Assembly: GCA_020630045.1 (NCBI GenBank)
Contig: JAHDCE010000001.1
Span: 1 to 26,490, forward strand
DNA length: 26,490 bases
Source of the DNA: Saprospiraceae bacterium
Lineage (GTDB): Bacteria; Bacteroidota; Bacteroidia; Chitinophagales; Saprospiraceae
Direction of reading: 5' to 3'
Every line of letters begins with the position of its first letter. Positions within the stretch are counted from its first letter, which is position 1. The notes under the pieces are model-generated. The model made no database searches. It saw only the letters and a list, made by a program, of their open reading frames with translations, and was not told the origin of the DNA. Of the stretch, positions 18,548 to 19,414 are shown one piece after another. A program made the position numbers and the translations under genes.

Positions 18548-19414
18548 ATGAGCGACACCGTCGGCAAAGGAAAATCCGATTTCGTCAAAACAGACGCCAA
18601 TGACGAAATCCTGCTTGCGCAACTGAGGCAAATCCTCTTACGCAAAGACAGGGAACAATTGGCTGAACTGGAAGACGAACTCAACGACCCCAATAAATTG
18701 GGGGCGAAGATTTCTCCTATTATAGAATACCACCTGAGTGTTCTCCGACAAAAATTTCCGGCCGAATACAAAAAAGAGGTCGAAAAACTCATCGAACGCC
18801 GACTCAAAGAATCACAAGACGAATTATTGGATGTCATTTACCCGGTCATCGGTAAAATGATCCGTAAGTATGTCAACCTTCAGTTTCAGACATTAAAAGA
18901 TAGCATAGATAATCGGGTCAAAGGTATTTTGTCTCCTAGGGGGATTTGGGGAAGGATTAAGGCCTTGGTCACGGGCGTCAATGAAAGCGAATATGTTTTG
19001 AGCGGGATGCAAGGCCCCATGATTGAAGAAGTATATGTCATTGAAAGGGACTCCGGCTTACTCCAAGCCCACTACTCTAGAAATGCTACAATCGATCGGG
19101 ATGTCGTTGCTGGTATGCTCACAGCCATCAAATCTTTTGTCGAAGATGCGTTCAACAGGGAAAGGGAAGACCTGGAAATGATTGAATATGGTACATATAA
19201 AATATACATTCAATCATTTCATCTCTATTATATTTCCATAGTTATCAGCGGTACATTATCTTCGTCGGAAAGAGACAAGTTATCTGCCAAAATTTTGGAC
19301 TTCGCCGAAGAAGAAATTCAAAGTCGTAGATTTATGCAAAGTCAAGGTGAGGATTCGGTCCAAAAGCTGTCAGATAAGTTGGCCGTATATTTTAAAACAG
19401 AACAAGAAGAATAA
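18548..19414 (+). CDS. Hypothetical protein: helical N-terminal region plus C-terminal longin/roadblock-like domain
   Basis: Starts 4 bp after the upstream stop. Helical region LAQLRQILL...LLDVIYPVIGKMIRKYV. C-terminal beta-beta-alpha-beta-beta-alpha pattern IEEVYVIERDSGLLQAHYS...DRDVVAGMLTAIKSFVEDAF...IEYGTYKIYIQSFHLYYISIVISG. No signal peptide, TM helix or OmpA domain. The fold call is an inference. Confidence 0.75.
   Translation: MSDTVGKGKSDFVKTDANDEILLAQLRQILLRKDREQLAELEDELNDPNKLGAKISPIIEYHLSVLRQKFPAEYKKEVEKLIERRLKESQDELLDVIYPVIGKMIRKYVNLQFQTLKDSIDNRVKGILSPRGIWGRIKALVTGVNESEYVLSGMQGPMIEEVYVIERDSGLLQAHYSRNATIDRDVVAGMLTAIKSFVEDAFNREREDLEMIEYGTYKIYIQSFHLYYISIVISGTLSSSERDKLSAKILDFAEEEIQSRRFMQSQGEDSVQKLSDKLAVYFKTEQEE

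What the first reader, a model, noticed from the sequence alone, without database searches (positions are those of the whole stretch)
19022..19414. Longin/roadblock-like domain encoded immediately upstream of the GTPase
Seen: the last 130 or so residues show two short strands (EVYVIERDSGLLQAHY), an amphipathic helix (DRDVVAGMLTAIKSFVEDAF), further strands (MIEYGTYKIYIQ, YYISIVISG) and a final helix (ERDKLSAKILDFAEEE). Inference: this order and the 'GLL...D.D..AGMLTAI.SF' signature resemble profilin/longin/roadblock domains, the typical GEF/GAP modules of small GTPases. The protein would then be the cognate regulator. I recall related proteins being labelled OmpA family, but no OmpA domain or membrane segment is present here.
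Basis: inference. Interest (0 to 1): 0.66.

Follow-up and report, generated by a model that had tools for sequence, protein, structure and literature searches.

The report
Longin-fold partner of bacterial Rab-like GTPase
The last 130 residues of this unannotated 288-residue protein are predicted to form a longin domain, the fold that docks and regulates Rab-type GTPases in eukaryotes, and it co-occurs with the Ras/Rab-like GTPase gene next to it, so it is probably that GTPase's docking or regulatory partner in a bacterial signalling system catalogued in 2014 but never tested.

Summary
Window 19022-19414 encodes residues 160-289 of a real, conserved 288-aa protein (ATG 18548 to stop 19414).

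A profile-profile comparison with Bacteroidota Roadblock proteins gave 85% probability. Pfam, NCBIfam and PDB sequence searches found nothing.

The operon (coiled-coil protein, this protein, GTPase lacking the G3 Gln, output protein) is the 'Group 1 Rup' neighbourhood of Wuichet & Sogaard-Andersen 2014. [quoted passage not shown] The window copy is a soluble form without TM or OmpA.

In 301 genomes of the phylum, the protein family and the GTPase occur in exactly the same 13.

A regulatory role (GEF, GAP or platform) is inferred, not shown.

This scan has reached the same reading on other DNA (43 notes, at least 41 genomes). I found no paper assigning the fold.

The parts
18195..18543 (+). Upstream coiled-coil protein, about 116 aa from ATG 18195 (the ORF lister starts it at TTG 18136). 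It is the first gene of the four-gene unit.
   Evidence: ORF. The only Pfam hits are weak ones to helical or coiled-coil families such as Phasin and DLP_helical. A small gene sits upstream of the family member in L001-L004, though one search found no similarity to it. This corresponds to the 'coiled-coil cytoplasmic protein' of the Group 1 Rup neighbourhood.
18548..19414 (+). The target gene: a 288-aa soluble protein (helical N-terminal region plus C-terminal longin domain), stop codon included.
   Evidence: No Pfam or NCBIfam family. One copy in the genome.
18590..19000 (+). N-terminal all-helical region, residues 16-152. It contains the conserved Y99-P100-x-x-G103 block.
   Evidence: AF2 helices H16-47, H49-70, H72-89, H91-128 and H131-143, with pLDDT 57-84. 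P100 and G103 are 99-100% conserved over 132 representatives. No structural match was reported for this part.
19010..19411 (+). Longin-fold domain, residues 156-289: b1 b2 a1 b3 b4 b5 a2 a3.
19094..19153 (+). Helix a1 of the longin domain, residues 184-203, carrying the family signature D-x-D-x-x-x-G-M-L-T-A-I-K-x-F. Predicted partner-binding face.
   Evidence: Most conserved block of the protein. It is kept in OmpA-bearing long forms and in family members whose GTPase gene lies elsewhere. Its role as the interface is inferred from the conserved way GTPases dock on roadblock or longin dimers, as reviewed in PMC10933270.
19437..19937 (+). Ras/Rab-like small GTPase, 166 aa, 22 nt downstream. The P-loop is GNFGVGKT and G3 is WDIAGE, so there is no catalytic Gln. 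This is the Group 1 Rup type.
   Evidence: PF00071 at 4.8e-31. Motifs. It is the only true small Ras-family GTPase in the genome. Group 1 Rup GTPases lack the G3 Gln.
19937..21028 (+). Output protein, 363 aa, whose start overlaps the GTPase stop. It has a PAS/LOV-like N-terminal domain, a long helix with invariant Q119-Q120, and a histidine-kinase-like C-terminus that has no Pfam hit here.
   Evidence: AF2 of residues 1-150 gave pLDDT 87.7. Foldseek top matches are YtvA LOV and other PAS domains. Q119 and Q120 are invariant. The homolog P0286 carries PF02518. The same N-terminal domain precedes a sigma54 activator in L001 and stands alone in L003.

Best explanation
The 288-aa protein is the previously unassigned 'unknown-domain' component of a Group 1 Rup small-GTPase system, here in a soluble form that lacks the TM-BON-OmpA tail of many relatives.

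Its C-terminal 130 residues form a longin domain. I propose that this domain docks the adjacent Rab-like GTPase on the face formed by its hyper-conserved helix a1, probably as a dimer like other longin and roadblock domains. It would then control the GTPase's nucleotide state or location.

My preferred specific role is nucleotide-exchange factor or nucleotide-state-specific docking platform, as in Mon1-Ccz1, TRAPP and DENN. The missing catalytic Gln of the GTPase would be supplied in trans by the invariant Gln-Gln of the PAS-like N-terminal domain of the downstream output protein, acting as the GAP. The GTPase state would thereby gate the output module.

What is shown:
- the fold, by prediction plus fold search;
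- the conservation pattern;
- the gene order;
- the phyletic co-occurrence.

What is inferred:
- direct binding;
- a1 as the interface;
- dimerisation;
- GEF rather than GAP activity.
For: Fold:
- AF2 model.
- Foldseek PDB top hits are all roadblock or longin.
- The exhaustive VIA search has only longin, roadblock and SRX chains in its top 50.
- AFDB Swiss-Prot matches agree.
- hhalign to Robl_LC7 proteins gives 85%, E 5.8e-6, over b1-b5 in register.

Coupling to the GTPase:
- The GTPase gene lies 22 nt downstream.
- The same order recurs in L001-L004 and in 8 of 12 other genomes of the phylum sample, and is divergent in one more.
- The 13 genomes with the family are exactly the 13 with a Rup-like GTPase, out of 301.
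- In the three genomes where the GTPase is unlinked, it lies elsewhere in the genome.
- The window's genome has one copy of each.

Interface: a1 (190-198) is the most conserved block.

GAP elsewhere:
- The GTPase lacks the G3 Gln.
- The output protein's N-terminal domain has invariant QQ, as Wuichet & Sogaard-Andersen noted.
- No Arg is conserved in the longin domain.
Against: - No binding or activity data exist for any member, and I found no experimental paper.
- A shared fold does not show function: longin domains in SNAREs and AP sigma subunits are not GTPase regulators, and MglB, the best-studied bacterial relative, is a GAP rather than a GEF.
- The helix a1 region has only moderate model confidence (pLDDT 71-75).
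- Pfam Longin and Robl_LC7 models do not hit.
- Co-occurrence across related genomes overstates independence: the 13 genomes fall into 10 genera.
Confidence: 0.6

Rival explanations
1. MglB-like GAP or co-GAP. The longin or roadblock dimer binds the GTP form and stimulates hydrolysis by repositioning the GTPase's own residues, or together with the PAS-like protein. It would not promote exchange.
Against: No Arg or Gln is conserved in the longin domain across the family. R168 varies to K, S, A or H. The conserved Gln pair lies in the output protein instead. The best structural matches are to longins of GEF complexes, but by margins of only 1-2 Z units.
Confidence: 0.15
2. Effector or adaptor, like SRX with SR-beta. 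The longin domain binds only the GTP-bound GTPase and carries the signal onward, or anchors the GTPase (to the membrane and peptidoglycan in the long forms). It would not change nucleotide kinetics.
Against: The window's clade of 41 representatives has lost the anchor yet keeps the domain and the a1 motif, so anchoring cannot be the whole function. A GTPase with a disabled catalytic site and no other candidate GEF in the operon leaves exchange unexplained.
Confidence: 0.17
3. Not directed at the GTPase. The domain is a dimerisation or small-ligand sensor module (as in the GAF, PAS and profilin-like folds) that acts on the coiled-coil or output protein. Adjacency to the GTPase would reflect only shared pathway membership.
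For: In 3 of 12 other genomes the GTPase gene is not adjacent. The fold class is used for many purposes.
Against: No PAS, GAF or profilin structure is in the top 50 of the exhaustive search. Genome-level co-occurrence is 13 of 13, with neither gene found in the other 288 genomes. Association of this fold with small GTPases is a recurrent theme.
Confidence: 0.08

Closest known systems
'Unc(-TM-OmpA)' component of the Group 1 Rup GTPase neighbourhood (Wuichet & Sogaard-Andersen 2014, PMC4316618)
   Same: It is the same protein family in the same four-gene set: coiled-coil protein, unknown-domain protein, Rup GTPase without the G3 Gln, and an output protein with an N-terminal domain carrying an invariant Gln.
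   Different: The paper left the domain unassigned ('conserved domain of unknown function'). Here it is resolved into a helical region plus a longin fold. The window's copy belongs to a soluble clade without TM or OmpA, and its output is a histidine-kinase-like protein with no detectable kinase domain by Pfam.
Longin domains of eukaryotic and Asgard GTPase regulators (Lokiarchaeal Roadblock-Longin protein 8yqg; Mon1-Ccz1; TRAPP Bet5/Trs23; CPLANE; BLOC-3)
   Different: There is no detectable sequence similarity (9-15% identity, no Pfam Longin hit). The protein is bacterial, sits behind a 150-residue helical region, and in relatives is fused to a TM segment and peptidoglycan-binding domains. 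No GEF activity has been shown.
MglB and CvnB Roadblock/LC7 proteins (MglA-MglB; actinobacterial conservon)
   Different: Roadblock has an N-terminal helix, where longin has C-terminal helices instead. Those proteins pair with MglA-family GTPases, not Rup GTPases. The Robl_LC7 Pfam model does not hit this protein. In the 301-genome sample, genomes with Robl_LC7 (20) and genomes with this family (13) do not overlap.

Membership tests
Longin domain (SNARE-like fold) | Order b1-b2-a1-b3-b4-b5-a2-a3, with the C-terminal helices packing on the sheet and no N-terminal helix | tested here: met
   AF2 secondary structure. Longin chains align through model residue 289, including a2 and a3. Roadblock alignments stop near residue 262 and start after their own a1. 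This rests on a predicted structure, not a solved one.
Longin domain (SNARE-like fold) | Significant structural similarity to solved longin domains across the whole domain | tested here: met
Longin domain (SNARE-like fold) | Match to a curated sequence model (Pfam Longin and related models) | tested here: not met
   No Pfam or NCBIfam family was found at E<=1 apart from two weak chance hits in the helical region. A profile search of PDB sequences found nothing relevant.
Roadblock/LC7 (PF03259, MglB-type) | Sequence-profile relationship to Robl_LC7 proteins | tested here: inconclusive
   Pfam hmmscan gave no hit. hhalign of the family's domain alignment against 29 Bacteroidota Robl_LC7 proteins gave 85.4% probability and E 5.8e-6 over 77 columns covering b1-b5.
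Roadblock/LC7 (PF03259, MglB-type) | N-terminal helix a1 packing on the sheet ahead of b1 | tested here: inconclusive
   Helices 131-152 precede b1 but have pLDDT 57-58 and are not aligned to roadblock a1 in any match.
Group 1 Rup system, unknown-domain component | Encoded next to a Rup GTPase that lacks the G3 glutamine | tested here: met
   The GTPase lies 22 nt downstream and its G3 is WDIAGE. The criterion is from PMC4316618.
Group 1 Rup system, unknown-domain component | Neighbourhood also holds a coiled-coil protein and an output protein whose N-terminal domain has an invariant Gln | tested here: met
   for the neighbourhood. Q119 and Q120 are invariant across histidine-kinase-like, sigma54-activator and stand-alone versions.
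Group 1 Rup system, unknown-domain component | Domain followed by a TM helix and a C-terminal OmpA domain (described as 'often', so not obligatory) | tested here: not met
   The window protein ends at residue 289 with no TM segment. Relatives P0233, P0246, P0248, P0255 and P0264 have a TM segment near residue 300 plus BON and OmpA.
GTPase regulator (GEF or GAP) | Direct binding to the GTPase and a change in exchange or hydrolysis rate | not testable with these tools
   No complex prediction or biochemistry was available. The only support is synteny and co-occurrence.

The most novel reading that the evidence does not exclude
The bacterial longin domain and its Rab/Ras-like Rup GTPase are true homologues of the eukaryotic longin-GEF and Rab pairs (Mon1-Ccz1, TRAPP, DENN). 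The GTPase and its longin platform would then already have been a co-inherited two-part module in bacteria. Since Group 1 Rup GTPases are reported to be the closest prokaryotic relatives of Rab, Ras, Rho and Ran, eukaryotes may have acquired the pair together from a bacterium rather than assembling it from archaeal parts.
Probability: 0.1. Interest if true: 0.85.

Novelty: new member of a known kind. Interest (0 to 1): 0.5.

Why it matters
Roadblock and longin platforms paired with small GTPases are a known theme (MglA-MglB, the conservon, Ragulator-Rag, Mon1-Ccz1-Rab7). The Rup family is the bacterial GTPase group reported closest to eukaryotic Rab and Ras, and it had no recognised partner of this kind. 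Its conserved neighbour was left as a domain of unknown function and is mislabelled 'OmpA' in databases.

Assigning a longin fold gives that large family (over 3000 clusters at 50% identity) a testable role. It points to a specific surface, helix a1, to mutate. It also splits the expected GEF and GAP functions between two operon proteins.

The soluble form in this window should be easier to purify than the membrane-anchored relatives, which makes it a convenient entry point for biochemistry. It also provides a bacterial data point for the debate on where Rab-regulating longin modules came from.

Tried and rejected
1. Sequence-only identification failed. Pfam, NCBIfam and a profile search of PDB sequences gave no relevant hit.

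2. I asked whether the N-terminal domain of the downstream output protein is a second longin or roadblock that could heterodimerise with the target, as in Mon1-Ccz1. This was rejected: its model (pLDDT 87.7) matches PAS/LOV domains with a J-alpha-like helix.

3. I asked whether family members without an adjacent GTPase have lost the a1 motif, which would have tied a1 to the GTPase. This was rejected: the motif is kept, and those genomes encode the GTPase on another contig.

4. I looked for an arginine finger in the longin domain, as in the FLCN or Nprl2 type of GAP. No Arg is conserved. R168 is conserved only among close relatives.

5. I checked for a canonical Roadblock gene in the same genome. 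None was found. The genome is 88.7% complete, so absence is not proven.

6. Literature searches for any paper naming the fold of this Rup-neighbour protein, or testing a Rup system, found only the 2014 survey. The library does not cover most subscription journals.

7. The helical N-terminal region (16-152) gave no structural match and remains unexplained.

Full report
**The gene and the observation**

The finding lies in a + strand ORF from 18545 (TTG) to 19414. An ATG at 18548, 4 nt after the stop of the upstream gene, is the likelier start. It gives the 288-aa product that public gene calls also report. Residue numbers below use the 289-codon ORF. Coordinates 19022-19414 are therefore residues 160-289 plus the stop.

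The protein has no Pfam or NCBIfam family. A profile of 41 homologues finds nothing relevant among PDB sequences. It is nevertheless a real and widespread gene. There are 500 or more homologues in the 90% clusters and 3124 representatives at 50% identity with E<=1e-3. Where these are named at all, the name is 'cell envelope biogenesis protein OmpA'.

**The fold**

An AlphaFold2 model built on 41 homologues has these features:
- Mean pLDDT is 74, and 81-90 over most of the C-terminal domain. The a1 region and one linker are lower (64-75).
- Residues 16-152 are long helices.
- Then come E159-167, E173-178, H185-202, E210-215, E218-224, E228-235, H240-258, H261-265 and H269-288.

The order is b-b-a-b-b-b-a-a.

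Four fold searches agree:
- Foldseek against PDB returned Rag C-terminal domains, LAMTOR subunits, MglB, dynein LC7, AP sigma and COPZ at the top, with E about 1e-4.
- The search that does not depend on Foldseek (48,161 chains) reproduced this. It had nothing but longin, roadblock and SRX chains in its top 50.
- AFDB Swiss-Prot matches agree.

The longin matches run through the two C-terminal helices, and the roadblock matches omit the roadblock's own N-terminal helix. The topology is therefore longin rather than roadblock (the distinction is explained in PMC10933270). Profilin, PAS and GAF folds did not appear.

At the sequence-profile level, I compared the family's domain alignment by hhalign with 29 Robl_LC7 proteins taken from genomes of the same phylum. 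The result was 85% probability and E 5.8e-6 over 77 columns spanning b1-b5 in register. That suggests remote homology but does not prove it.

**Conservation**

Among 132 representatives, the most conserved stretch of the whole protein is helix a1, G190-M-L-T-A-I-K-x-F198. It is followed in conservation by G171 in the b1-b2 turn and G236 after b5. A second block, Y99-P100-x-x-G103, lies in the helical region. No Arg is conserved in the longin domain.

**Architecture in relatives**

Longer relatives (450-650 aa) have one hydrophobic segment near residue 300, directly after the longin domain. BON and OmpA domains follow, or SH3 in one case. In those proteins the helical-plus-longin module is thus the cytoplasmic part of an inner-membrane, peptidoglycan-binding protein. 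This explains the database name.

The window's protein ends after the longin domain and has no TM segment. In a quick tree it falls in a supported clade of 41 short-only representatives. That sample is biased towards close relatives of the query.

**Context**

The gene is second in a tight four-gene unit:
- a coiled-coil protein, 18195-18543;
- the target;
- a 166-aa Ras-family GTPase, 19437-19937 (PF00071, 4.8e-31);
- a 363-aa protein, 19937-21028, whose start overlaps the GTPase stop.

The GTPase has GNFGVGKT in the P-loop and WDIAGE in G3, so it lacks the catalytic Gln.

The first 150 residues of the 363-aa protein model confidently (pLDDT 87.7) as a PAS/LOV-like domain with a long following helix. 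Q119 and Q120, at the start of that helix, are invariant. The same N-terminal domain precedes a sigma54 activator in L001 and stands alone in L003. One homologue of the 363-aa protein carries HATPase_c.

This is the 'Group 1 Rup' neighbourhood described by Wuichet & Sogaard-Andersen (PMC4316618). [quoted passage not shown] The paper states that no Rup member has been characterised experimentally. I found no later paper that does so or that names the fold.

**Coupling to the GTPase**

- In a sample of 301 genomes of the phylum, the family is present in 13. A Rup-like GTPase (E<=1e-12) is present in exactly the same 13.
- Of the 12 other genomes, the GTPase gene lies immediately downstream on the same strand in 8 and is divergently adjacent in one.
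- In three genomes of one genus it lies on another contig. Those proteins keep the a1 motif.
- The window's genome (88.7% complete) has one copy of each and no Robl_LC7 match.
- Across the sample, the 20 genomes with canonical Robl_LC7 proteins and the 13 with this family do not overlap.

The 13 genomes fall into only 10 genera, so they are not independent observations.

**Mechanism**

Shown: the predicted fold, the conservation pattern, the gene order and the co-occurrence.

Inferred: the longin domain binds the Rup GTPase on the face made by a1. This follows the conserved way GTPases sit on roadblock or longin dimers, summarised in PMC10933270. The domain would thereby set the GTPase's nucleotide state or location.

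I favour a GEF or nucleotide-state-specific platform for three reasons:
- The operon's only conserved candidate catalytic residue for hydrolysis, the QQ pair, sits in the PAS-like protein.
- The longin domain has no conserved Arg or Gln.
- The best structural matches include the longin subunits of Rab GEFs.

I put about 0.7 on direct GTPase binding and about 0.35 on GEF activity specifically. An MglB-like GAP role, an SRX-like effector or anchor role, and a role not directed at the GTPase remain open.

**Relation to earlier notes of this scan**

The scan has reached the same reading on other DNA: 43 notes in at least 41 genomes mention the longin or roadblock domain beside a Rup GTPase, mostly in the OmpA-anchored form. 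A Flavobacterium operon with a soluble form was also followed up. I reached the fold, the 2014 paper and the co-occurrence independently before reading those notes, and they agree with my results.

What is specific to this window:
- the soluble, anchor-less form;
- the PAS-like assignment of the output protein's N-terminus;
- the exact 13-of-13 co-occurrence in this phylum sample;
- the profile-profile link to Robl_LC7.

**Verdict**

The protein is a new, Pfam-less member of the longin/roadblock class of small-GTPase partners, inside a system that was catalogued in 2014 but never tested.

Noticed in passing
window 19937-20386: The N-terminal 150 residues of the downstream 363-aa 'pseudokinase' are predicted (pLDDT 87.7) to form a PAS/LOV-like domain followed by a long J-alpha-like helix. 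Invariant Q119-Q120 sit at the start of that helix. The same domain precedes a sigma54 activator in L001 and stands alone in L003. It has no Pfam model.
   Followed up: partly
phylum sample of 301 genomes: The 20 genomes carrying canonical Robl_LC7 (MglB-type) genes and the 13 carrying the longin-family and Rup GTPase pair do not overlap. The two kinds of GTPase-partner system look mutually exclusive in this sample.
   Followed up: no
L023/L027 (G040), L024/L028 (G013), L026/L029 (G220): In one genus the OmpA-anchored family member (with a 168-aa upstream gene) and the Rup-like GTPase lie on different contigs. There the GTPase is followed by an overlapping 307-aa protein with no Pfam family.
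   Followed up: partly
L025 1167-5534 (G144): The arrangement is divergent: the OmpA-anchored family member faces an operon of a GTPase and a complete HisKA and HATPase_c kinase. The GTPase's open frame extends about 165 residues upstream of the G domain, which may be a start-codon overcall in GC-rich DNA.
   Followed up: no
window 16533-17855 (- strand); L003 2109-3419; L004 1650-2960: A DUF7033 protein of about 436-440 aa is encoded divergently just upstream of the four-gene unit, both in the window and in a relative only about 50% identical in the target protein. This may be retained synteny or a functional link.
   Followed up: no
window 18590-19000: The 135-residue helical region ahead of the longin domain has an almost invariant Y-P-x-x-G block (residues 99-103). 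It found no structural match, and its role is unexplained.
   Followed up: no
window 18136-18548: The start codons given by the mechanical ORF list are probably too far upstream. The coiled-coil gene more likely starts at ATG 18195 and the target at ATG 18548.
   Followed up: partly
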